Numbered from the whole stretch's first letter, positions 7,130-53,666 are shown. The stretch: DNA of 59,710 nucleotides, filler included, from 9 parts of 9 records of this genome joined end to end with filler, not necessarily neighbours in it; one strand, 5' to 3'. Program-made: numbers and translations. Notes: a model not told the origin generated them from the sequence alone.

Positions 7130-7229
7130 NNNNNNNNNNNNNNNNNNNNNNNNNNNNNNNNNNNNNNNNNNNNTTAATTAATTAANNNNNNNNNNNNNNN
7201 NNNNNNNNNNNNNNNNNNNNNNNNNNNNN
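7130..7229. other. Artificial contig spacer; identical spacers at 13260-13359, 18830-18929, 24169-24268, 31778-31877, 41835-41934, 47636-47735 and 53567-53666
   Basis: Each is exactly 100 nt with a central TTAATTAATTAA (stops in all six frames). Genes are cut on both sides and composition changes abruptly across most of them. Confidence 0.98.
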
Positions 7230-12184: not shown

Positions 12185-13259
12185 TTATTTATTTTGAATG
12201 TCTTCTTCTATCCATCCTGAGCGATTTGGTGGCTCAGGAGTTTTAACTTTTTTCGTCGGATTTTCCTGCAATTGTTTCAGAAGAACCTCAACAGCTTTTT
12301 CAATTCCGGGGTCAATTCCTTTTGCCAATTGTTCAGGTCGGTCAACCACTTCAATATCGGGATAAACGCCAACTCCCTCGATTATCCACTCACCGTTTTC
12401 ATCGTAAATTCCAAAACGGGGAACCGAGAAACTACCACCATCTACAAATTGTGCATTCCCCGAAATTCCTACCAGACCGCCCCAGGTTCTTGTCCCGATA
12501 AGCTGCCCGAGACCTTTCTTTTTGAAATAGTATGGGAATGCATCGCCACCGGAGGAAGAGTATCCGTTTATGAGCATTACTTTTGGCCCGTCGTGCGCCA
12601 CTGCCGGTGTTTTCATAGGCGATAATCCGTTAACATTCCAGTAACTTAATGTTTTACGGTCGAGTAAATCGGCCATTACATCGGGAATGAAACCACCACC
12701 GTTATACCGGTCGTCGATAATTAACGCTTCTTTGTTGTGGTAAGCATACATTCCTTTGTGTAGTTCACGGTTTCCTTCGTAAGAAGTATTTGGAACATGG
12801 ATATATCCTATTTTTCCACCTGAAAGTTTATCGACAAGTGTGCGGCGCTCGTTTACCCAGTTAAAATACATTAAATCCAGTTCGCTGGTAATAGGTTTTA
12901 TTGTTGACGTTCGGACAACTGCTTTATTCGGTTCTGAATTTACCCCAATTTCAATGTGTTTACCAGCGGTGTTTTCAAGGAATTCGTAAGGATTATCGTT
13001 AGTTGTAATTTCGTGTCCGTTTATACTAATCAGATAATCACCTTCATTTACATTTACACCTTGTTCGGTAAGTGGCGAGCGTAACGATTCGTTCCAGTTC
13101 TGGCCTTTCAGTATTTTTTCTATTTTATAATATCCGGCTTTTTTGTCGGCCACGAGTTTTGCTCCAAGCAATCCACCTTCAACGCGTTTAGCTTTTTCAA
13201 AATCGCCCCAGTTTACATAAGAATGACCTGTGTTCGATTCAGAAACAATTTCACTAAAA
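12185..13259 (-). CDS. S41 tricorn-type protease, C-terminal part (PDZ + catalytic domain); 5' truncated
   Basis: Frame open to the contig edge (..NTGHSY..). IGYIHVP, IIDDRYNGGG, SSSGGDAFPY, GTRTWGG, IEGVGVYPDIEV. Confidence 0.92.
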
Positions 13260-13359
13260 NNNNNNNNNNNNNNNNNNNNNNNNNNNNNNNNNNNNNNNNN
13301 NNNTTAATTAATTAANNNNNNNNNNNNNNNNNNNNNNNNNNNNNNNNNNNNNNNNNNNN

Positions 13360-18829: not shown

Positions 18830-19086
18830 NNNNNNNNNNNNNNNNNNNNNNNNNNNNNNNNNNNNNNNNNNNNTTAATTAATTAANNNNNNNNNNNNNNN
18901 NNNNNNNNNNNNNNNNNNNNNNNNNNNNNGCGCATCGACCCCCGGGTTCATCGATCCGAAACTGCCGCCGGCGGGGCGCTATGCCCTGACTTGAACGATC
19001 AAAAATGTTTAATGCGTTGCTTCCCGCCGGAGCGTAAGCTGGCGGATACCCAAACTCGTCCAAGAAAAACAATTAGGATCAGCTAA

Positions 19087-24168: not shown

Positions 24169-24268
24169 NNNNNNNNNNNNNNNNNNNNNNNNNNNNNNNN
24201 NNNNNNNNNNNNTTAATTAATTAANNNNNNNNNNNNNNNNNNNNNNNNNNNNNNNNNNNNNNNNNNNN

Positions 24269-31777: not shown

Positions 31778-31934
31778 NNNNNNNNNNNNNNNNNNNNNNN
31801 NNNNNNNNNNNNNNNNNNNNNTTAATTAATTAANNNNNNNNNNNNNNNNNNNNNNNNNNNNNNNNNNNNNNNNNNNNATAGTGAGTTTCCGGTCTTGTCC
31901 GGACATAAGGGTGCATCAACTTCCCAGAATTTTT

Positions 31935-38140: not shown

Positions 38141-38392
38141 AATATAAACGCAGAAACAACCCGGAAAATTGGCCGTATCGTCCGGTTCCACCGCAAAGAG
38201 GCCGGGCTGGTCCGGATAGATTTGGCCGATATTGCAGGGGTGGGAAAGACGGTTGTCTATGATATCGAAAACGGTAAAGAAACAGTAAGGCTGAATACCC
38301 TTTTAAAGGTCTTGGGAGCGCTCAATGTCTCCATATTCCTGGACAGTCCCTTGATGGATCGTTACAAGGCGGATGACGATGCGGAGGGCTGA
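38132..38392 (+). CDS. hipB: HipB-like HTH antitoxin/regulator
   Basis: RKEAGL..LADIAGVGKTVVYDIENGK..LNTLLKVL; first gene of the hip triplet. Confidence 0.85.
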   Translation: MPVNINAETTRKIGRIVRFHRKEAGLVRIDLADIAGVGKTVVYDIENGKETVRLNTLLKVLGALNVSIFLDSPLMDRYKADDDAEG

Positions 38393-38690
38393 TGTGTTCA
38401 TGCACGACCTCCATGCTGGCATTCTGGAGGAAATCGCGCCGCGGACGGCCTTCCGGTTTACCTATGACTCGACCTATGACGGGCCTCCGGTTTCTCTGAC
38501 AGCGCCTGTCAGACCTGAGCCATACGGGTATGATACGTTCCCGCCTTTCCTGGAGGGGCTGCTGCCCGAAGGGTACAACCTGGAAGCCCTCCTTCGCGCC
38601 CTGAAGATCGACCGGCAGGATCTTTTCAGCCAGTTGCTGGCGGTGGGAGGGGATATGGTGGGTGCGGTGACGGTGCGGGAGGCCGAATGA
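38373..38690 (+). CDS. HipA N-terminal domain protein (HipS-like)
   Basis: AGILEE..FRFTYD..PPVSLT..FPPFLEGLLPEG..DMVGAV. Start could be 38379. Confidence 0.85.
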   Translation: MTMRRADVFMHDLHAGILEEIAPRTAFRFTYDSTYDGPPVSLTAPVRPEPYGYDTFPPFLEGLLPEGYNLEALLRALKIDRQDLFSQLLAVGGDMVGAVTVREAE

Positions 38691-39613
38691 GCATCTGCCC
38701 CATCACCTATGAACCGTGCGAGGGGAAATATTCGCTCCGGGGGCTGAAGAAATTCTCACGAAGCCTCAAGGAACTGAAGGATCTTCCCTACACCGCCTCG
38801 GATCAGATATTTGAAGCCGCGGCCCGTGCCCCCAAGATGTCGATCCAGGGGGTTCAGCCCAAGCTCAGTGCCGTCTTGAACACCCGTAAAAACGGTTTCG
38901 AGCTTGTGGATACCGGCGGCCGGTATATCTTGAAGCCCCAGAACCCCCAATACCGACACCTCCCGGAAAACGAGGACCTTTCAATGCGCCTGGCGGCCGC
39001 GGCCGGCATTCCGGTTCCCTTTCACGGGCTGGTTTATTCAAAAGACGGTTCCATGACCTATTTTATCCGGCGGTTTGACAGGGTGGGGAAAAAGAAAATC
39101 GCCGTGGAGGACTTCTCGCAGCTCCTGGGCCTGAGCCGAGACACCAAATACGATGCCTCCATGGAAAAAATCGCCAAGGTGATCGACCAATACTGCACCT
39201 TTCCGGCAGTGGAAAAAATAAAGCTGTTCAGACTGACCCTGGTGAATTTTCTCATCGGCAACGAGGACATGCACGTGAAAAACTTTTCCCTGATGACCCG
39301 GGATGGCAAGGTGGAGTTCACACCTGCCTATGATATCCTGAACACCACCATGGTGCTGTCTGATCCAAAAGAGGAGATCGCGCTGCCGATAAAAGGGATA
39401 AAACGCAAGCTGGATTTCGAAATTTTGATTGATTATTTCGGTCGGATTCGGCTGGGGCTGAACCGGAAAATCATATCGTCCTTGCTGGAGGATCTTAAGG
39501 GAGTGACACATGTTTGGGACAGACTTATCGGTGTCAGCTTTTTACCCCGGAAGATGAAAAGGGGATATCGTCTGTTGCTGGAAAGTAGACGCGTAAGGTT
39601 GTTGAATGGGTAG
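38687..39613 (+). CDS. HipA C-terminal kinase domain toxin (HipT-like)
   Basis: Gly-rich loop MSIQGVQPK, YILKP, ENE, RRFDR, GNEDMHVKNFS, PAYD. Confidence 0.9.
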   Translation: MSICPITYEPCEGKYSLRGLKKFSRSLKELKDLPYTASDQIFEAAARAPKMSIQGVQPKLSAVLNTRKNGFELVDTGGRYILKPQNPQYRHLPENEDLSMRLAAAAGIPVPFHGLVYSKDGSMTYFIRRFDRVGKKKIAVEDFSQLLGLSRDTKYDASMEKIAKVIDQYCTFPAVEKIKLFRLTLVNFLIGNEDMHVKNFSLMTRDGKVEFTPAYDILNTTMVLSDPKEEIALPIKGIKRKLDFEILIDYFGRIRLGLNRKIISSLLEDLKGVTHVWDRLIGVSFLPRKMKRGYRLLLESRRVRLLNG

Positions 39614-41834: not shown

Positions 41835-41934
41835 NNNNNNNNNNNNNNNNNNNNNNNNNNNNNNNNNNNNNNNNNNNNTTAATTAATTAANNNNNNNNNN
41901 NNNNNNNNNNNNNNNNNNNNNNNNNNNNNNNNNN

Positions 41935-44597
41935 AATACGGATCCATGAAGATGACATTTTCAAAGGCCTATTCGGCCTTTGGGCAGGCCATCATCGATA
42001 CCCAGCTGGAACAAAAGCGAAACGAAATCGTCTGCCATCAGGTCAAGAACATACTCAGGGTATTTTTCGGTATGTCATCGGACCAGGGAGGCAAGGCCGA
42101 TGTGCCTCCGCCCCTGCCCGAAGATGCCCGGAGCCTGCTCAAAAAACATGCGCACTGTGCCCGGGAGGTGTTTGAACTGACCTATGATTTTATCGTCAAT
42201 GCCAAACCCTATGAAAAGGGGCTGGAATTCGGCACCCATGCCCTTGTAAGCCGGCTCCTCTACGACAATGACAAATCCATTATCGGCCGGGTCCGGGACC
42301 GAATCAACAAGGACATCAATGACATCCTGTCTGCCACGGAAAAAGACCAGCGCCTGGCAAGGATCGACACCCTGAGAAAGCAGCTGGACCGAGACCTGGG
42401 CATAGATGGTGAAGCGACCGATCCGGGGGCTCGGGCACTGGAAAACAGCATCAGGGACCAGCGGAAAAGACTGTATGAAAAGCTGGTTGGTGACGACGAC
42501 GGTCTGATCAATGCGCTCTGGGCCGCCGTTGACAACAAGGAAAGGGGCGGACTGGGGTACACCCTCCAGCTCATTGAGCTTTTAAAGGATGACATCTCCA
42601 ATAAGAAAACCGGCCTGATCATGCAGATCACCCGGGCGGAACACTGGTTCAGCGGCCTTTGCGATACCATCAAGGACAAGGAACTCCAGGTTCTAAGAGA
42701 ACACCTGAACCAGACCCGGGGCCGGGGCCTTTTCGGCTTCGGCAACCGGGAGGCCCATGCCGAGGCCAAACTGGAACAGACCGGCGAAGCCATCCGCTGG
42801 TATGCCGAAGCCCGTCTCCGGGCGGTTGCAGCCAGGGAGGCCGCCATACTGCTCCGGGACCTGGCCAAGTGGCTGGGCAAACATGAGGGAATGGATGACA
42901 ATACCGGAAAAAAACGCTGGTCCAAAAACAGTTTTGCCGGAAAACTGGTGGCCTTTGAATCCCTTATCCGGGACATTACATCGGCCATGGACGAGGAGGT
43001 GGAACGTTCCAGGGAGGCCTTAAAACAGGATCATCCCACTTACCAAATCGTTAAGGCCACGGTAAAGGAGCTGGATGAGGCTGGCCAGGTATCGCCGGAG
43101 CAGGCCAAGGCATGGGCCCGGACAATTTTTGACAACCTCGGGGGGGCCCGGGAGATATTCAAAGAACTCAAACAGGCCAAGCAGATATTGAACGGTCAGC
43201 CTGCGCCCAAGAACGGGACCAACCTGATCCTCCGGCTGAAGAATCTGGTCCTGGCCCATCTCCCGTCCTTGGGCAGCGGCGAGGAGAACCCACTGATCCA
43301 AGCCTTTTCCCACATGTCCGAAGCCGAGCGCAGGGTGTATTTTGAAAACTGCCTGGGCATGGCCATGCCTTGGGTGGAAGTCAACCTTGAAGGGGCCTGG
43401 ACCGTAGACCCTGACCAGTATGCCTGTGTGATCGGCGTCAGCGGGGCCAAAGTGTTTGAAAAAAAATTCGGGGATGATTTTAAAAGCGCGCTGCCGGCCC
43501 TGGCCCGGATGTCCCCGGACAAAATCAGTTTTTATGAAACCGGGGTGTCAGGAAAACTGACCTGTTATGTGGAACTCTCCGGGGTGCCCCTGCCGGCCTT
43601 GAAAATGCTTGCCAACTGGAAGGCCTCCTACAAGGAAGCCGGAAAAAAAATCCCGGTCCACACCCATAAGGACAAAACCATATTCGTCCACCCCATCGCC
43701 CCCAGTGCCGAATCCCTGGACCGGCTTGCAGACCACTTCAAAACCTATATACAGGGCATTGTCTTCAACATACTCAAACGGCGGAAAGACCATCTCTATT
43801 GTTTTAAGATATCCGGCGATACCCTTGCCGTGGGCAACGAACGGGCCATCCGCATGGAGGGAATGGACAGCGAGCACTTGAATGAATTCAAGCCCAAACT
43901 CACCAAAGCCATGGACCGCATCAAAACTCCGGCGCAGGTGGCCGGGCTGGACGCCATTTATGACTACTATATCCGTCGCGTCTATCCTCCCAGGAAAATC
44001 ATGGATGAAGACATGCGGGAGAATATGCAGAAAGGTTTCTGCAATGTCATGGGCGAGGACCTCAAAAAACAGACAGGCAGATTACTGGAGAAGAAGTATG
44101 GAACATCGGACATGGACCTGTCGGTCCTGTCGGCCAAGCTGAAAGATCCCGCGAACCTGGATGTCTGGACAGATGAGGTTGCGGGTTCAGAATCGGATGT
44201 CTATGAAATCGAAATCGGAGACACCTTTTTTCCCAAGCGGACGCTCAGGCCGGAATTTTTCGAGCCCGGATGGCTGGAGTCCAGATTCCTGCCCCTGGCC
44301 AGCCCCAAACCGGCCACTTCCCTGGAAGCGCCAGGGCCGGTCCCGGCTGTCGGGGGAACCTGGTGGGTGGCCCTGAACAGACAAAAGGACGGCCCCCATG
44401 AATGGTCCCGGTTGGAATCGTTGATCGCACAAGGGGTGGTGACCATGGACACCAAGGTCTGGACATCGGGATTTCCAAAATGGGAACCGGCCGGCCAGGT
44501 GGATGAACTGGCCGTATTGTTCCACCAGCCGCCACCGCTGGAGGAAGACCAGCCCCCTCCCCTGGAGGAAGGACCGCCGGACATTGACGGGGTGTAA
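41935..44597 (+). CDS. C-terminal ~885 aa of a large protein, probably tubulin-like (Tubulin_2/FtsZl family), ending in a GYF_2 (DUF4339) domain and a Pro/acidic tail
   Basis: Frame open at the contig edge. 'YSAFG' followed by long helical segments and 'CYVELSGVPL..W..SY..PVHTH' resembles the post-GTPase region of Tubulin_2 proteins. WWVALNRQKDGP..L..G..TKVW.SG..W is the GYF_2 pattern. The GTPase domain itself is not in the window. Confidence 0.6.
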
Positions 44598-44675
44598 AAG
44601 GCGGCAACCAATACCCATCGCACGATTGTGAACACCGGGCGGCTGCCTGTTGCAGCCGGCCATGCCTGAAGGAGC

Positions 44676-45536
44676 ATGCGGCATATGCCGGAAACATCCT
44701 ATCCCATTCCATGTGGGACCTGTAAAACATCATTGTATGGAAAGGTTGACTATTGCCCGTACTGCGGCTGCCTTCTGACAGAGAAGCCGCCTCCCCCGAA
44801 CCTGGAGGAACTCCGCCCGGCCCCCGGGGAGCACGGATTTGAACCGCCCACGGAAGATCCCCCCCCTTCCCCGGCCCCTGGGCCAAAAGAGCCGCCCCCT
44901 GCGCCCATGGAAACGGCCCCCCCATACTTTGAACCGGTTGCCCCGGGAAATGGGGAAAAAATACACTGTCCTAAAAAAACGGCTGCCCTTCCTGTGGAGC
45001 CGAAACAGGCACCGGCCGGGCGAGAAAAATCGAATCTGGCCCCTGCCCTGGTCGTCCTCACTGCCCTGTTGATCGCTGGGGCTGCCGGGTTTTATTTATA
45101 CGGATACGGCGTTCTGGCACCCGGCAGCCAGAACGCCATTGCCAGGGCAGGCCAGGCCCTGGATAAGGGAATCCAGCTGTCAATCCTCTGCACCAATCTT
45201 CCCAGGTTGGAAAAAAGGACAAAGACGGCAAAAAAATTGTACGACATCAATCCGTCAAAATATAAGGATACGTTCACCGCTGAAAAAAAATTAATGGCAT
45301 TGGCCTTAAAAAAAAGACAGGACCTGCTTGCGGCTTATATCCGCCTGGCAGGGAAACTGGACAAAAGCGACCCCAATTTTCTGTCCAGGTCATTGGCCTC
45401 AATCCAGGCTCACCCCCAAGGGGATCGCGGCCGGCAAGTCGCCGGGCTGCTGGCCCGACATGTCCCTGCCCTGAAGAAACACCCCCCACCGGGTTCCCAA
45501 CAAATTTTGTCGGACTTCACCAGGCAATTTAAATAA
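44676..45536 (+). CDS. Zn-ribbon, Pro-rich, single-TM membrane protein
   Basis: CGTC..CPYCG, a Pro-rich linker, TM segment LVVLTALLIAGAAGFYLY, then a helical extracytoplasmic domain; GGAG RBS. Confidence 0.75.
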   Translation: MRHMPETSYPIPCGTCKTSLYGKVDYCPYCGCLLTEKPPPPNLEELRPAPGEHGFEPPTEDPPPSPAPGPKEPPPAPMETAPPYFEPVAPGNGEKIHCPKKTAALPVEPKQAPAGREKSNLAPALVVLTALLIAGAAGFYLYGYGVLAPGSQNAIARAGQALDKGIQLSILCTNLPRLEKRTKTAKKLYDINPSKYKDTFTAEKKLMALALKKRQDLLAAYIRLAGKLDKSDPNFLSRSLASIQAHPQGDRGRQVAGLLARHVPALKKHPPPGSQQILSDFTRQFK

Positions 45537-45587
45537 ATGAACCAAGCAAGCAAAACGCTAAAAAACGCCACAAAAAAGGAAAAACAA

Positions 45588-46301
45588 ATGAAACTTCAGA
45601 TGGAACAAGGCATTATTTTATGGATAATCCTGGTATTTTTATCGGGCTGTGTAACCACAGGGACCAACACCGCTCATACGGATCCTTGCAGCCCGGTGGA
45701 CCGGTCACGATTAGAAAATGAGGGCACGGCCCTTGTTGCCATTGGCGGCGCTTTAGCAGGCGCAATTATAGGCCAGCTGCACGGTAAAAATACGAAGAGC
45801 ACCCTGATCGGGGGCGCATCAGGTCTGCTGGCCGGCGGCATCATCGGCCGGGAGTGGGGGAAGACCATTGCTGACCGGAAAGAACAGTATGCCAGTAAAG
45901 AATGCCGTCTCAAAGGAGAACTTGATCTTGTGACAGCCCGGAACAGCCAGCTCAAAGCATCAAACAAAAAACTTGCTGCTGAAGTTAAGCGCAGGAAGCA
46001 GACCGTTGCCCGCCTCAAAGAACAATATTTGGCAAAAGAAATCAAAGCAAAGGACCTGAAGCTGCAACAGGAAAAAATCAAGCAGGAAGTACTTGCCCTG
46101 ACTGAAATTAAAGAAAATCTGACTGCGGAACTATCCGCCCTGAAGGCCTACCATGACAGCATTCAGGCATCAGGGGACCCGGTTAGGCTGGCTGAACTGA
46201 AAATCGAAATCGAGTCCCTCCAGAGCGGCATAAATGATTTGAATACAAGCAACCGCGAACTTGCCCGGATGGCAGCCACCCTTGATCTGAGGCGCTCATA
46301 A
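45588..46301 (+). CDS. Lipoprotein with glycine zipper and long coiled coil
   Basis: Lipobox LSGC; GGALAGAIIG..LIGGASGLLAGGIIG; heptad-rich C-terminus. Start uncertain (45537, 45588 or 45600). Confidence 0.8.
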   Translation: MKLQMEQGIILWIILVFLSGCVTTGTNTAHTDPCSPVDRSRLENEGTALVAIGGALAGAIIGQLHGKNTKSTLIGGASGLLAGGIIGREWGKTIADRKEQYASKECRLKGELDLVTARNSQLKASNKKLAAEVKRRKQTVARLKEQYLAKEIKAKDLKLQQEKIKQEVLALTEIKENLTAELSALKAYHDSIQASGDPVRLAELKIEIESLQSGINDLNTSNRELARMAATLDLRRS

Positions 46302-46822
46302 TGAAATGGAGATATTTCTTCCTGACTGTGGCGGCAATATTAACCCTGTCGTCATGCGGTACCGGCGGATTTCTTGATGAAGCCGTGAACGTCCACACCG
46401 GTGTATACGAAAAACGGAATGCAGAAAAAAACAAGGCCATTGATCGGCAGCAAAAAGAACATCTGGCCCTCCTGTCAGAATCCGACAGGCTGACAACGTG
46501 GTCAAGGGAATATGAACAATTGCTGGCCCAGGAACAGTACCGGGTGGCCGCGATGGAAAAACGCCTTGAACGATTGGTCTCCAAGATCCGAACCCTGACC
46601 GGCCAATACGCCGATAGCACCATTGATATCAACACTTTAAAAGACAAAATCTCCACCTGTCAAACCCGTCTCACCAGACAGAAGTCAGCGGTCTCAGCAA
46701 TGGAGCAGGGACTGGTTGACCCGGCAAGAATCCGCATGCTGGAACAGGAAAGGGATGAACTAAAAAAAGAGTACAAGGCCCTGCTGGAGTATTCCCAGGC
46801 AATCGTAAATACAGTGGATTAG
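46301..46822 (+). CDS. Coiled-coil lipoprotein
   Basis: Lipobox LSSC; TAATG overlap with the previous gene; heptad pattern. Confidence 0.8.
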   Translation: MKWRYFFLTVAAILTLSSCGTGGFLDEAVNVHTGVYEKRNAEKNKAIDRQQKEHLALLSESDRLTTWSREYEQLLAQEQYRVAAMEKRLERLVSKIRTLTGQYADSTIDINTLKDKISTCQTRLTRQKSAVSAMEQGLVDPARIRMLEQERDELKKEYKALLEYSQAIVNTVD

Positions 46823-46931
46823 TCTTTTCATGTAGGAATATTTCAAACCGAACACCCATTGCAAGGGGATGCCGCTTTGAGTCCGGCATCCTGTTTTTAT
46901 TGGCCGATATCCTGTCCCCCAAGGAACTCAT

Positions 46932-47635
46932 ATGATGAACAACCGGATCAACCTGTTCCTCAATAATAATGTAAAGAAGATCAACCGGCTAATTCGCCGT
47001 GTCTTTTTTATTCTGCATTTCATCATTGCCGCCCAGTTGACGGCCCAGGCCGGCCAGCCCTATCCCAAAAGCAATTCAAAATACGATTATGCCGTAACAA
47101 AAGCAGAAAACACGATCTGTTCTGCCATACGGTTACAATGCACGGAAAAGCAGATTAAATCAGCCAAGGATGCACTGGAAAAGGTCAAGGAAGACTTGAT
47201 CGCCTTTGAGCATGCATTGCTTGCAAAAGATATCTACCATGAAAGGTCAAAGATGGTCCTGGGCGGGTGGCGGAGGCTAAGCCATACTGAACTGCTTCGG
47301 TTGGGATTAAATCCACCGGACTTTAAAAACCTGGGCAGCGAATTCAGGGCCGGCCTCTATCACCACCCGGAAAAAAAACGATATGCCTTGGTTTTTAAAG
47401 GAACCTCCGCCTGGGAGGACTGGCTCAATAACCTTTCCCAAAAAATTCCCTACTTCAAACTGATCGAGTTGATTGACAAAACGCCTGTCAATCAGACAGC
47501 ATACCCCGTGCTCCTTTTTATCCTGAAGGCCTCTCCCTTCCTGGTCCCTTTTGACTATCATAAAAAAGCCGTCAATCTTGCCCTTTCCGTTAAGACCGCA
47601 TTAAAAGATAAATTGGAAAAAAAAGGGATCATCCT
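46932..47635 (+). CDS. Secreted alpha/beta-hydrolase lipase (lipase_3/DUF2974/Tle-like); 3' truncated
   Basis: Signal-like N-terminus; ALLAKDIY, FRAGLY, YALVFKGT..DWLNNL. Truncated just before the expected GHSxG. Confidence 0.7.
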
Positions 47636-47993
47636 NNNNNNNNNNNNNNNNNNNNNNNNNNNNNNNNNNNNNNNNNNNNTTAATTAATTAANNNNNNNNN
47701 NNNNNNNNNNNNNNNNNNNNNNNNNNNNNNNNNNNCGAGGAAGCTATGAGGAGCGCCAAACGTCCTCAAGTGATTTTCCACTGATACTGCCATTCAAGAT
47801 GATCCCGGCTGTCTGCCCATTGCGCCTTGGCGACGATTCCGAAAAGAAGGCCGGGTTGAGTCACTCGAAATTAGATCTGAATACGAAATCCGGCGGTTAT
47901 TTTCTGCTCGGATTCGGGGCCTGCCCCGGCGCCTACAACCATCAGGTTGAAAAATCCGGTAAAAATCCGAAATTTGGTTTCATTGCTACTGAT

Positions 47994-53566: not shown

Positions 53567-53666
53567 NNNNNNNNNNNNNNNNNNNNNNNNNNNNNNNNNN
53601 NNNNNNNNNNTTAATTAATTAANNNNNNNNNNNNNNNNNNNNNNNNNNNNNNNNNNNNNNNNNNNN

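What the first reader, a model, noticed from the sequence alone, without database searches (positions are those of the whole stretch)
41935..47635. Tubulin-like/GYF_2 protein with membrane, lipoprotein and lipase partners: candidate undescribed envelope-spanning conflict or membrane-remodelling system
Seen: five co-oriented genes, none housekeeping. They encode a giant helical protein with a C-terminal GYF_2 domain, a Zn-ribbon/Pro-rich inner-membrane protein, a glycine-zipper coiled-coil lipoprotein coupled to a second coiled-coil lipoprotein, and a secreted lipase. Known: divergent FtsZ/tubulin-like (FtsZl/Tubulin_2) genes occur in poorly understood operons with vWA, GTPase and kinase genes. 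Glycine-zipper lipoproteins such as TagQ and lipase_3-type effectors accompany antagonism systems. Inferred: a cytoplasm-to-outer-membrane assembly coupled to a lipolytic enzyme. The tubulin call rests on recalled similarity of the non-GTPase region only.
Basis: partly seen in the sequence, partly recalled or inferred. Interest (0 to 1): 0.72.

Follow-up and report, generated by a model that had tools for sequence, protein, structure and literature searches.

The report
Tubulin-like FtsZl1 operon fragment
This short contig holds the back half of a conserved bacterial gene cluster built around a tubulin-like protein first predicted in 2010 and apparently never tested, while the lipase gene at its end is a one-off neighbour.

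Summary
The five co-oriented ORFs are real. The region 41935-47635 is one whole 5.7-kb contig of a concatenated draft assembly. Its first gene has lost its 5' end and its last gene its 3' end at the contig ends.

59 of 61 homologues of the 886-aa fragment (most ~1,190-1,270 aa) carry Pfam Tubulin_2, and 50 of 61 carry GYF_2. This is the FtsZl1 family of Makarova and Koonin (2010).

In 160 related loci the conserved unit is A (Zn-ribbon protein), B (exported, membrane-anchored vWA-fold protein), C (small membrane protein), TUB and g2 (Zn-ribbon/TM protein).
- g2 follows TUB in 106 of 114 loci.
- The glycine-zipper lipoprotein g3 follows in 31 of 104.
- The second lipoprotein g4 follows in 6 of 100, and is then always followed by an S41 peptidase.
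- The lipase-like gene g5 occurs in 0 of 160.

g5 is the N-terminal part of a class-3/Tle-like lipase with a signal peptide. No defence-system model matches, and 55 of 58 genomes of one genus carry the tubulin gene.

Best reading: a tubulin-like GTPase scaffold docked through GYF/Zn-ribbon adaptors to an envelope-spanning complex. The function is untested. It is a variant of a known, uncharacterised kind.

The parts
41835..41934 (.). Assembly linker (N44-TTAATTAATTAA-N44) marking the left end of the contig
41937..44597 (+). g1/TUB: the C-terminal 886 residues of an FtsZl1 (Tubulin_2) protein. The frame is open at the contig start, so the tubulin-like GTPase domain (about 350 residues) is missing. 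What remains is a helical bundle, an alpha/beta region, a GYF_2 domain and a tail.
44361..44510 (+). GYF_2 domain of TUB (residues 806-855, counted from the ATG at 41946)
   Evidence: Pfam E 1.4e-12. In the model, the GYF fold is the top Foldseek match, to the GltJ GYF domain 7z3c at 29% identity. VIA gives Z 8.3 and 7.7 to two TIC/TOC-TIC complex chains and 6.4 to the GIGYF1 GYF domain over model residues 800-863.
44511..44594 (+). Proline- and acid-rich C-terminal tail with two PPPL motifs (PPPLEEDQPPPLEEGPP)
   Evidence: 133 of 136 GYF-type relatives have at least one such motif.
44676..45536 (+). g2: an N-terminal Zn ribbon (residues 13-31), a proline-rich linker, one transmembrane helix (about residues 121-139) and a periplasmic helical domain. 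This domain type occurs only in loci that also have g4.
45537..46301 (+). g3: a lipoprotein (lipobox LSGC, Cys38) with a glycine zipper (residues 63-109) and a coiled coil
46301..46822 (+). g4: a coiled-coil lipoprotein (lipobox LSSC, Cys19). Its start codon overlaps the g3 stop codon by one base.
46932..47635 (+). g5: a signal peptide plus the N-terminal part of a class-3/Tle-like alpha/beta-hydrolase. The contig ends just before the expected GHSLGG nucleophile. It is not conserved with the system.
   Evidence: absent from all 160 loci
47636..47735 (.). Assembly linker marking the right end of the contig

Best explanation
The contig carries the 3' part of an FtsZl1 (Pfam Tubulin_2) operon.

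**The conserved unit.** In relatives it is A, B, C, TUB and g2.
- A is a cytoplasmic Zn-ribbon protein of about 500 aa.
- B is exported. It has a vWA fold with a degenerate MIDAS site, two Ig-like sandwiches, a C-terminal transmembrane helix and a small cytoplasmic beta domain.
- C is a roughly 135-aa membrane protein with three transmembrane helices.
- TUB has a tubulin-like GTPase domain, a helical bundle, an alpha/beta region, a GYF_2 domain and a Pro/acidic tail.
- g2 has a Zn ribbon, a linker, a transmembrane helix and a periplasmic domain.

The window belongs to a rare subtype in which g2 carries a special periplasmic domain. In this subtype g2 is followed by a glycine-zipper lipoprotein (g3), a coiled-coil lipoprotein (g4) and normally a periplasmic S41 serine peptidase.

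**Proposed mechanism (inferred, not shown).** TUB forms a GTP-regulated scaffold under the inner membrane. Its C-terminal adaptor docks it to the cytoplasmic parts of the membrane proteins. The adaptor is GYF_2 plus a twin proline motif, or Zn ribbons or a SHOCT-like end in variants. This resembles the way FtsZ's C-terminal peptide docks to FtsA/ZipA, and the way the GltJ GYF domain docks to a proline-rich partner. The periplasmic domains of B and g2, together with the lipoproteins, extend the assembly to the outer membrane. In this subtype they place a periplasmic hydrolase there for local envelope remodelling.

**The lipase-like g5** is most likely an unrelated neighbour or a local replacement in the hydrolase slot.
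For: **Identity**
- 59 of 61 homologues carry PF13809 and 50 of 61 carry PF14237.
- L002's orthologue scores Tubulin_2 E 6.8e-47 and GYF_2 E 3.5e-10.
- Santana-Molina 2023 (PMC9871819; three matching passages seen by term search) equates Tubulin_2 with the FtsZ-like family of Makarova and Koonin.

**Gene order, among loci with enough flank**
- C: 136 of 145.
- B: 125 of 129.
- A: 110 of 112.
- g2: 106 of 114.
- g3: 31 of 104.
- g4: 6 of 100.
- S41: 7 of 93.

**Fold of B**
- The AF2 model has pLDDT 85.7.
- Residues 39-230 align to vWA domains with Z 9-10; nearly all of the top 40 rows are vWA domains.

**Subtype**
- The window-type g2 periplasmic domain occurs in exactly the 8 loci that have g4.
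- S41 follows g4 in 6 of the 6 loci with enough flank.

**Adaptor**
- 136 of 154 complete TUB C-termini have the GYF-like domain followed by a tail of median 19 aa that is 21% Pro and 26% acidic.
- The best structural match of the window's model is the GltJ GYF domain. That domain binds a proline-rich sequence of AglZ with micromolar affinity (PMC11135422; passages read).

**Against a mobile or defence role**
- TUB is present in 55 of 58 genomes of one genus.
- There was no PADLOC hit apart from coiled-coil matches.
Against: - No experiment exists for any member, as far as my searches show.
- The window itself lacks the tubulin domain and genes A-C, so its membership rests on orthology of the remaining 886 residues (at most 56% identity).
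- The proline content of the g2 linker does not track the presence of GYF_2. It is 2-29% in GYF-type loci and 26% in a Zn-ribbon-type locus. g2 is therefore not clearly the GYF ligand.
- Polymerisation is doubtful for FtsZl1. Makarova and Koonin could not identify the T6-H7 elements.
- B's MIDAS motif is degenerate (invariant QNSGW instead of DxSxS), unlike most vWA partners they describe.
- At the GTDB family level only 25 of 151 genomes have TUB (one of the 25 is the unpublished genome G084).
- Assorted exported hydrolases lie near some loci. This would also fit an effector-type system.
Confidence: 0.6

Rival explanations
1. A conflict or defence system. The tubulin-like NTPase and the vWA receptor sense an invader or envelope damage and release or activate an exported degradative effector. 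The effector would be the S41 peptidase in relatives and the Tle-like lipase here.
For: - The last position of the cluster varies and holds exported hydrolases: S41 in 6 loci and the lipase in the window.
- L088 has a CARDB-caspase protein. L009 has an M4 peptidase gene after g3 (similar-sized ORFs in L010 and L011 were not scanned). L084 has a non-specific endonuclease further downstream.
- The g5 family profile matches a T6SS lipase effector, 7ubz_B, at E 8.2e-43.
- Earlier notes of this scan link other FtsZl1/vWA loci to caspases, BrxL or CRISPR genes (these are leads only).
Against: - The only PADLOC matches among eight operon proteins and g5 were coiled-coil noise on the g4-like protein.
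- The A-B-C-TUB-g2 core has no recognisable effector, and most loci have no hydrolase after it.
- 55 of 58 genomes of one genus keep the gene, which is unusual for defence islands.
- The M4 peptidase and the endonuclease are separated from the system by gaps or by unrelated genes.
Confidence: 0.17
2. A surface adhesion or gliding-type machine like Agl-Glt. The vWA/Ig-like protein would be an adhesin, and the Zn-ribbon/GYF modules would be a switch linking it to a cytoplasmic track.
For: - GltJ of the Myxococcus focal-adhesion machine combines Zn-ribbon and GYF domains. Its GYF domain is the best structural match here.
- Fold matches of B include the pilus tip adhesins RrgA, SpaC and Mfa5.
Against: - No motor genes (TolQR/ExbBD-like) or outer-membrane beta-barrel genes were seen in the core.
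- B is predicted to stay anchored in the inner membrane, with its vWA domain in the periplasm.
- Attia et al. state that, outside Myxococcales, ZnR-GYF proteins do not correlate with Mgl/AglZ genes.
Confidence: 0.08
3. g5 is a functional member of this particular operon. A Tle-like lipase has replaced the S41 peptidase as the periplasmic hydrolase that the g2-g3-g4 module handles.
For: - g5 is co-oriented and lies 110 nt after g4, with no terminator-like site on the + strand between them.
- It occupies the position that S41 holds in 6 of 6 relatives.
- Both are exported serine hydrolases.
Against: - This is a single occurrence; g5 is in 0 of 160 other loci.
- S41 starts within about 20 nt of g4 or overlaps it in relatives, whereas g5 follows a 110-nt gap.
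- GC content falls from about 0.50 to about 0.45-0.47.
- S41 could still lie beyond the contig end.
Confidence: 0.15

Closest known systems
FtsZl1 (FtsZ-like 1) family, Pfam Tubulin_2 (PF13809), with its vWA operons (Makarova and Koonin 2010, Biol Direct 5:33, PMC2875224)
   Same: - Full-length orthologues have an N-terminal tubulin/FtsZ-like domain with the GGTGxG signature, a long helical region and a C-terminal globular part.
- The operon includes a vWA-fold protein with a signal peptide and a transmembrane helix, plus several membrane proteins of no known family.
- One relative (L088) also has an OmpA-family gene.
   Different: - No GTPase or kinase domain (no Pfam family at all) was found in the A, B and C proteins of the two loci scanned.
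- The vWA MIDAS motif is degenerate but invariant (QNSGW).
- TUB ends in a GYF_2 domain plus a twin proline motif.
- Zn-ribbon proteins flank it on both sides.
- This subtype adds two lipoproteins and an S41 peptidase.
- I could not see the paper's Additional files 5 and 6, which list the operon families A1-A2 and B1-B9. Some of these partners may already be catalogued there.
GltJ ZnR-linker-GYF switch of the Myxococcus xanthus Agl-Glt focal-adhesion machine (Attia et al. 2024, Sci Adv, PMC11135422)
   Same: - Both use a bacterial GYF domain and Zn ribbons on the cytoplasmic side of an envelope-spanning set of membrane proteins and lipoproteins.
- The GltJ GYF domain binds a proline-rich sequence.
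- The authors propose that ZnR-GYF modules are general switch modules in operons with receptor-like membrane proteins.
   Different: - Here the GYF domain sits on the tubulin-like protein, and the Zn ribbons sit on separate proteins (A and g2).
- No MglA/MglB/AglZ genes were seen.
- The ligand of this GYF domain is unknown.
FtsZ with its conserved C-terminal peptide and membrane tethers FtsA/ZipA (textbook knowledge, recalled)
   Same: A tubulin-superfamily GTPase whose extreme C-terminus is a short conserved docking motif placed after a spacer.
   Different: - FtsZl1 lacks the FtsZ C-terminal domain and recognisable T6-H7 elements.
- It is four times larger.
- It coexists with normal FtsZ (per Makarova and Koonin).
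- Docking has not been shown.
Enterobacter cloacae T6SS phospholipase effector Tle (PDB 7UBZ; Nat Commun 2024, PMC11470151; search listing and abstract start only)
   Same: - A profile of g5 and seven relatives matches Tle at E 8.2e-43.
- Relatives carry the GHSLGG nucleophile (51 of 55 have a GxSxG motif).
   Different: - g5 alone gives no PDB match.
- It has a Sec-type signal peptide.
- Its catalytic part is cut off.
- No T6SS or immunity gene is on the contig.
Outer-membrane lipoprotein adaptors of S41 C-terminal processing proteases (NlpI-Prc, LbcA-CtpA; recalled, not checked in a paper here)
   Same: Lipoprotein genes are paired with a periplasmic S41 peptidase in the subtype the window belongs to.
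   Different: g3 and g4 are glycine-zipper and coiled-coil proteins, not TPR proteins. No interaction or substrate is known.

Membership tests
FtsZl1 / Pfam Tubulin_2 | N-terminal tubulin/FtsZ-like GTP-binding domain with the GGTG(S/T)G signature, in the window's own protein | not testable with these tools
   The contig starts about 350 residues into the gene. A 28-kb Logan contig in run X1 spans the stretch, but its flanks cannot be read here.
FtsZl1 / Pfam Tubulin_2 | The same domain in full-length homologues of the window's 886-aa fragment | tested here: met
   59 of 61 hits carry PF13809; the two without it are shorter than the rest (890 and 986 aa). L002's orthologue scores E 6.8e-47. AGGTGxG columns are at least 90% conserved.
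FtsZl1 / Pfam Tubulin_2 | Long helical or coiled-coil region followed by a further globular region | tested here: met
   AF2 model, pLDDT 78.7. There are long helices at about residues 115-360, then an alpha/beta region at about 490-790. Fold matches to the helical part are generic, with Z at most 8.4.
FtsZl1/vWA operon (Makarova and Koonin 2010) | A vWA-domain protein encoded in the same operon | tested here: met
   Met in relatives, not on this contig. Gene B lies upstream in 125 of 129 loci. Model residues 39-230 match vWA domains at Z 9-10. Pfam and a PDB sequence profile do not detect the domain.
FtsZl1/vWA operon (Makarova and Koonin 2010) | Associated P-loop GTPase and/or Ser/Thr kinase (frequent, but not universal) | tested here: not met
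   No Pfam or NCBIfam hit of that kind in A, B or C of L001 and L002. Only two loci were scanned.
GYF_2 (PF14237) | Profile match above the curated cut-off, plus the GYF fold | tested here: met
   47.6 bits against a cut-off of 25.8. The top Foldseek hit is 7z3c, the GltJ GYF domain.
Class-3 lipase / Tle-like alpha/beta-hydrolase (g5) | GxSxG nucleophile elbow and the catalytic triad | not testable with these tools
   The contig ends where relatives have GHSLGG.
Class-3 lipase / Tle-like alpha/beta-hydrolase (g5) | Sequence similarity of the part that is present to family members | tested here: met
   There are 55 hits, the best at E 2.9e-10 over residues 67-175. 51 of 55 have GxSxG. Of 10 relatives scanned, 4 have weak Lipase_3 hits and 1 has Mbeg1-like only. 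The family profile matches the T6SS lipase 7ubz_B at E 8.2e-43. g5 alone has no Pfam or PDB hit.
Bacterial lipoproteins (g3, g4) | Signal peptide ending in a lipobox [LVI][ASTVI][GAS]C | tested here: met
   LSGC in g3 and LSSC in g4. A lipobox-like motif is present in 38 of 42 g3-family ORFs and 7 of 8 g4-family ORFs. Outer-membrane sorting is inferred from the +2 residue rule (recalled).
Known anti-phage defence systems (PADLOC-DB 2.0) | A match of any component to a defence-system model | tested here: not met
   There were 0 hits for A, B, C, TUB, g2, g3, S41 and g5. The g4-like protein gave only coiled-coil matches to LmuB/JetC.

The most novel reading that the evidence does not exclude
A tubulin-superfamily GTPase is wired to the cell envelope by a split version of the GltJ-type Zn-ribbon/GYF switch. 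Through g2, a SlyB-like glycine-zipper lipoprotein and a coiled-coil lipoprotein, it positions an exchangeable periplasmic hydrolase: an S41 protease in relatives and a Tle-like lipase here. That would be a new kind of cytoskeleton-guided machine for local remodelling of the outer membrane or cell wall. It would also give the first function for FtsZl1.
Probability: 0.15. Interest if true: 0.8.

Novelty: new variant of a known kind. Interest (0 to 1): 0.4.

Why it matters
FtsZl1 was described as among the most diverged branches of the tubulin/FtsZ superfamily. It has had no experimental function since its prediction in 2010.

This analysis defines a clean five-gene core, A-B-C-TUB-g2, present in at least 110 loci. 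It shows that the partner B has a vWA fold that sequence methods miss. It also links the family to the recently characterised bacterial GYF/Zn-ribbon adaptor logic.

The same core is present in cultured Janthinobacterium, Massilia, Duganella, Rugamonas, Acidovorax and Azoarcus strains. It occurs in 55 of 58 genomes of one genus. The open question of what FtsZl1 does can therefore be approached by ordinary genetics.

For this window specifically, the result is mostly a correction. The locus is a truncated member of a known class, and the lipase link is not general.

Tried and rejected
- **Own genome.** None is held, so the missing ends could not be sought there. HMMs of A, B and C found nothing on the other contigs of the window. 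A weak S41-like hit at 12188-13303(-) lies on a contig of different GC content and was judged unrelated.
- **PDB sequence-profile searches.** The profiles of A and B gave 0 hits.
- **Protein A.** An ESM Atlas look-up gave only sub-threshold leads to Zn-ribbon and NHL/SBBP beta-propeller clusters.
- **Fold searches of the TUB fragment.** Foldseek gave no match at E <= 0.001. The VIA wide search gave only generic helical matches, including dynamin-like stalks at Z 6-7. I do not claim a relationship.
- **Complex prediction.** The GYF domain plus tail of TUB against the cytoplasmic part of g2 returned no answer.
- **Covariation check.** A GYF-type TUB does not go with a proline-rich g2 linker; there is no clear link.
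- **RNA evidence.** No RNA holder was listed. Run X2 holds only two 250-nt pieces.
- **Automatic chaining of downstream ORFs.** It was too noisy in high-GC genomes and was dropped. A conserved gene after S41 was sought and not found.
- **HMM drift.** The iterated g3 HMM drifts. It also picks up g4 and, in two loci, g2. The g3 counts are therefore approximate.
- **Earlier findings of this scan.** Look-ups by place and by sequence returned nothing.
- **Paper searches.** Searches for FtsZl1, PF13809/Tubulin_2, tubulin-like + vWA + anti-phage, and GYF_2/PF14237/DUF4339 found no experimental study of this family. The supplements of Makarova and Koonin 2010 could not be opened.

Full report
**What is in the window.**
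The window is a chain of draft contigs joined by N44-TTAATTAATTAA-N44 linkers. The finding's coordinates, 41935-47635, are exactly one 5,701-nt contig. It carries five co-oriented ORFs:
- g1: 41946-44597. Its frame stays open back to the first bases of the contig, giving an 886-aa fragment read from 41937.
- g2: 44676-45536.
- g3: 45537-46301.
- g4: 46301-46822. Its start codon overlaps the g3 stop codon by one base.
- g5: 46932-47635. It runs into the right-hand linker.

The neighbouring contigs encode unrelated genes: ABC transporters, a HipA-like kinase and a short-chain dehydrogenase. They are not physical neighbours of this contig.

- g1 has a GYF_2 domain (E 1.4e-12, above Pfam's cut-off).
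- g2 has a Zn ribbon whose C16, C27, P28, C30 and G31 are invariant, and C13 nearly invariant, among 13 relatives. It then has an 89-residue linker that is 29% proline and one hydrophobic helix.
- g3 has a lipobox and a glycine zipper.
- g4 has a lipobox and coiled-coil-type matches only.
- g5 starts with a signal-peptide-like segment.

**The tubulin call.**
A search with the 886-aa fragment found 61 proteins. Most are about 1,190-1,270 aa long and the best is 56% identical. 59 of them carry PF13809 Tubulin_2, and 50 carry PF14237 GYF_2. The two without Tubulin_2 are shorter than the rest (890 and 986 aa).

The alignment consensus shows GGTGME near the N-terminus and AGGTGSG further on. The second motif is at least 90% conserved. 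The window's fragment starts about 350 residues into the protein, so the GTPase domain is lost to the contig end and is not absent from the gene.

Tubulin_2 is the FtsZ-like (FtsZl1) family of Makarova and Koonin 2010 (PMC2875224; sections 3 part 1, 5 and 6 read). The equation of the two is stated by Santana-Molina et al. 2023 (PMC9871819; three matching passages seen by term search).

**The real conserved unit.**
I fetched 80 genome loci and 80 metagenome loci around relatives. I then built iterated HMMs for each neighbouring gene family.

Three relatives (L001, L002, L008) showed the order A (~500-527 aa), B (~500-510 aa), C (~135-144 aa), TUB, g2-like, glycine-zipper lipoprotein, coiled-coil lipoprotein, Peptidase_S41.

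| Gene | Side of TUB | Present / loci with enough flank |
|---|---|---|
| C | upstream | 136 of 145 |
| B | upstream | 125 of 129 |
| A | upstream | 110 of 112 |
| g2 | downstream | 106 of 114 |
| g3 | downstream | 31 of 104 |
| g4 | downstream | 6 of 100 |
| S41 | downstream | 7 of 93 |

In a few loci g3 lies in front of A instead. g5 was found in none of the 160 loci, either by tblastn at E 1e-3 or by phmmer.

The set that co-occurs is therefore A-B-C-TUB-g2.

**The subtype of the window.**
The C-terminal, predicted periplasmic domain of the window's g2 is found in exactly the eight loci that have g4, the window included. In the six of those with enough flank, an S41 peptidase with a signal peptide starts within about 20 nt of g4 or overlaps it. 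In the seventh, L099, the contig ends inside g4.

The window is the only case where g4 is followed by something else. g5 comes after a 110-nt gap, and GC content falls slightly from about 0.50 to 0.45-0.47. There is no terminator-like site on the + strand in between. An S41 gene could still lie beyond the contig end.

**What the partners are.**
Pfam, NCBIfam and PADLOC give nothing for A, B, C or g2. PDB sequence profiles of A and B give nothing either.

*B.* The AlphaFold2 model (pLDDT 85.7) shows these parts in order:
- an N-terminal signal or anchor helix;
- an alpha/beta domain at residues 41-225;
- two beta sandwiches at 235-418;
- a transmembrane helix at 422-446;
- a small beta domain of about 57 residues.

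Residues 39-230 align to vWA domains with Z 9-10. The matches include alpha2delta subunits, ArnB, Rpn10, vWF A1, integrin beta-I, BatB and Sec23/24. Nearly all of the top 40 rows are vWA domains. The Z values are moderate, but the matches are uniform.

The family's invariant residues include Q47-N48-S49-G50-W51 at the end of the first strand, T129-D130, and T154-N155-N156. I read these as a degenerate but fixed MIDAS site. That reading is an inference from position.

*A.* It has a CPxCG-type Zn-ribbon motif followed by a tryptophan-rich region of about 430 residues. The Atlas leads to beta-propellers are below a usable score.

*C.* It has three hydrophobic helices.

**TUB beyond the GTPase domain.**
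The model of the window's fragment (pLDDT 78.7) has four parts:
- long helices at about residues 115-360;
- a mixed alpha/beta region at about 490-790;
- a GYF fold at about 800-862;
- a disordered tail.

The best Foldseek match is the GYF domain of Myxococcus GltJ (7z3c, 29% identity). The helical part has only generic matches.

Among 154 relatives with a complete C-terminus, 136 have the GYF-like domain. It is followed by a short tail (median 19 aa, 21% Pro, 26% acidic). 133 of the 136 tails have at least one proline motif, and 101 have two or more. Examples are PPPL...PPPL here and IPDP...IPDP in Oxalobacteraceae.

The other 18 mostly end in Zn-ribbon repeats or a SHOCT-like helix. Three keep a proline-rich tail after a single Zn ribbon. 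The C-terminus therefore behaves as an exchangeable adaptor plus a docking peptide.

**How it most likely works.**

*Shown:*
- the gene order and its conservation;
- the domain identities listed above;
- the predicted topologies.

*Known from the literature:*
- Makarova and Koonin proposed FtsZl1/vWA operons as membrane-associated, membrane-remodelling complexes.
- The bacterial GYF domain of GltJ binds a proline-rich sequence of AglZ. ZnR-GYF modules act as a switch in an envelope-spanning machine (PMC11135422; passages read).

*Inferred:*
- TUB is a GTP-regulated scaffold under the inner membrane.
- Its GYF domain and tail dock it to the cytoplasmic parts of A, B, C or g2.
- The periplasmic domains of B and g2, with the lipoproteins g3 and g4, extend the assembly outward.
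- In this subtype they place the S41 peptidase.

I give about 0.9 to the identity statement and about 0.35 to this mechanism. The overall figure of 0.6 reflects both.

Points against the mechanism:
- The proline content of the g2 linker does not follow the presence of GYF.
- FtsZl1 may not polymerise.

**Rival readings.**
A conflict-system reading keeps some weight. Exported hydrolases of several kinds occur at or near the end of some loci: S41; a CARDB-caspase and an OmpA-family gene in L088; an M4 peptidase in L009; and an endonuclease in L084. The g5 family is also related to a T6SS lipase effector.

Against it:
- There is no PADLOC match.
- The core contains no effector.
- Most loci have no such gene.
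- TUB is in 55 of 58 genomes of one genus. At the GTDB family level it is in only 25 of 151 genomes (this tally includes the unpublished genome G084).

**g5.**
A scan of 1.84 billion representative proteins gave 55 hits, none stronger than E 2.9e-10, all over residues ~30-190. Of ten relatives scanned, four have weak Lipase_3 matches and one has Mbeg1-like only. In the alignment, all seven relatives have GHSLGGG directly after the point where the contig ends. 51 of the 55 have a GxSxG motif.

A profile of that alignment matches the T6SS lipase effector 7ubz_B at E 8.2e-43, and fungal class-3 lipases at about 1e-4. g5 alone matches nothing in the PDB. g5 is thus the N-terminal part of a divergent Tle-like, class-3 lipase with a signal peptide.

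**Extending the contig.**
A public run (X1, possibly the source of this assembly) holds a 28,251-nt contig that contains the whole stretch without a difference. The flanks therefore exist, but they cannot be read with these tools.

**Earlier notes of this scan.**
Other GYF-tailed FtsZl1 genes and FtsZl1/vWA loci were filed under the same 2010 family. These notes agree with my reading but are not independent evidence.

**Verdict.**
- The locus is a truncated member of a distinctive subtype of a known but uncharacterised class.
- Interest is moderate, at 0.4.

Noticed in passing
window 1-59710 (linkers at 7130-7229, 13260-13359, 18830-18929, 24169-24268, 31778-31877, 41835-41934, 47636-47735, 53567-53666): The window is nine contig pieces joined by six-frame-stop linkers. 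GC content ranges from 0.38 to 0.64 between pieces. Adjacency across linkers therefore means nothing, and the bin may be mixed.
   Followed up: partly
window 38373-39613 (+): A HipA_C-domain protein (E 4.8e-48) is preceded by a short overlapping ORF. It looks like a HipBA-type toxin-antitoxin pair, on the contig to the left.
   Followed up: no
L088:17077-22428; L090:3756-16097: Some close relatives carry extra genes after the S41 gene: an OmpA-family protein, a second Zn-ribbon/TM protein and a 1,056-aa CARDB-caspase protein (L088). Some carry two TUB systems in tandem (L090, L083, L122/L123).
   Followed up: partly
L009:15393-16424, with similar-sized ORFs in L010 and L011: In L009 (a Duganella MAG) a thermolysin-type M4 metallopeptidase gene lies about 700 nt after g3 on the same strand. 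L010 and L011 have ORFs of similar size at the same place, about 320 nt after g3, which were not scanned.
   Followed up: no
B family, e.g. L081:5156-6673, residues 449-505: The cytoplasmic C-terminal tail of the vWA protein is predicted as a small six-stranded beta domain. It is a candidate docking site for the proline-rich tail of TUB, but this was not tested.
   Followed up: no
L002:12958-14007 (g2 linker): In L002 the g2 linker carries three copies of a KKDIP motif (two as KKDIPPETSK) instead of a proline-rich stretch.
   Followed up: no
window 12188-13303 (-): There is a weak S41-peptidase-like ORF (E 6.7e-6 to the operon's S41 HMM) on a low-GC contig. It is probably an unrelated tricorn/Tsp-like protease.
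   Followed up: no
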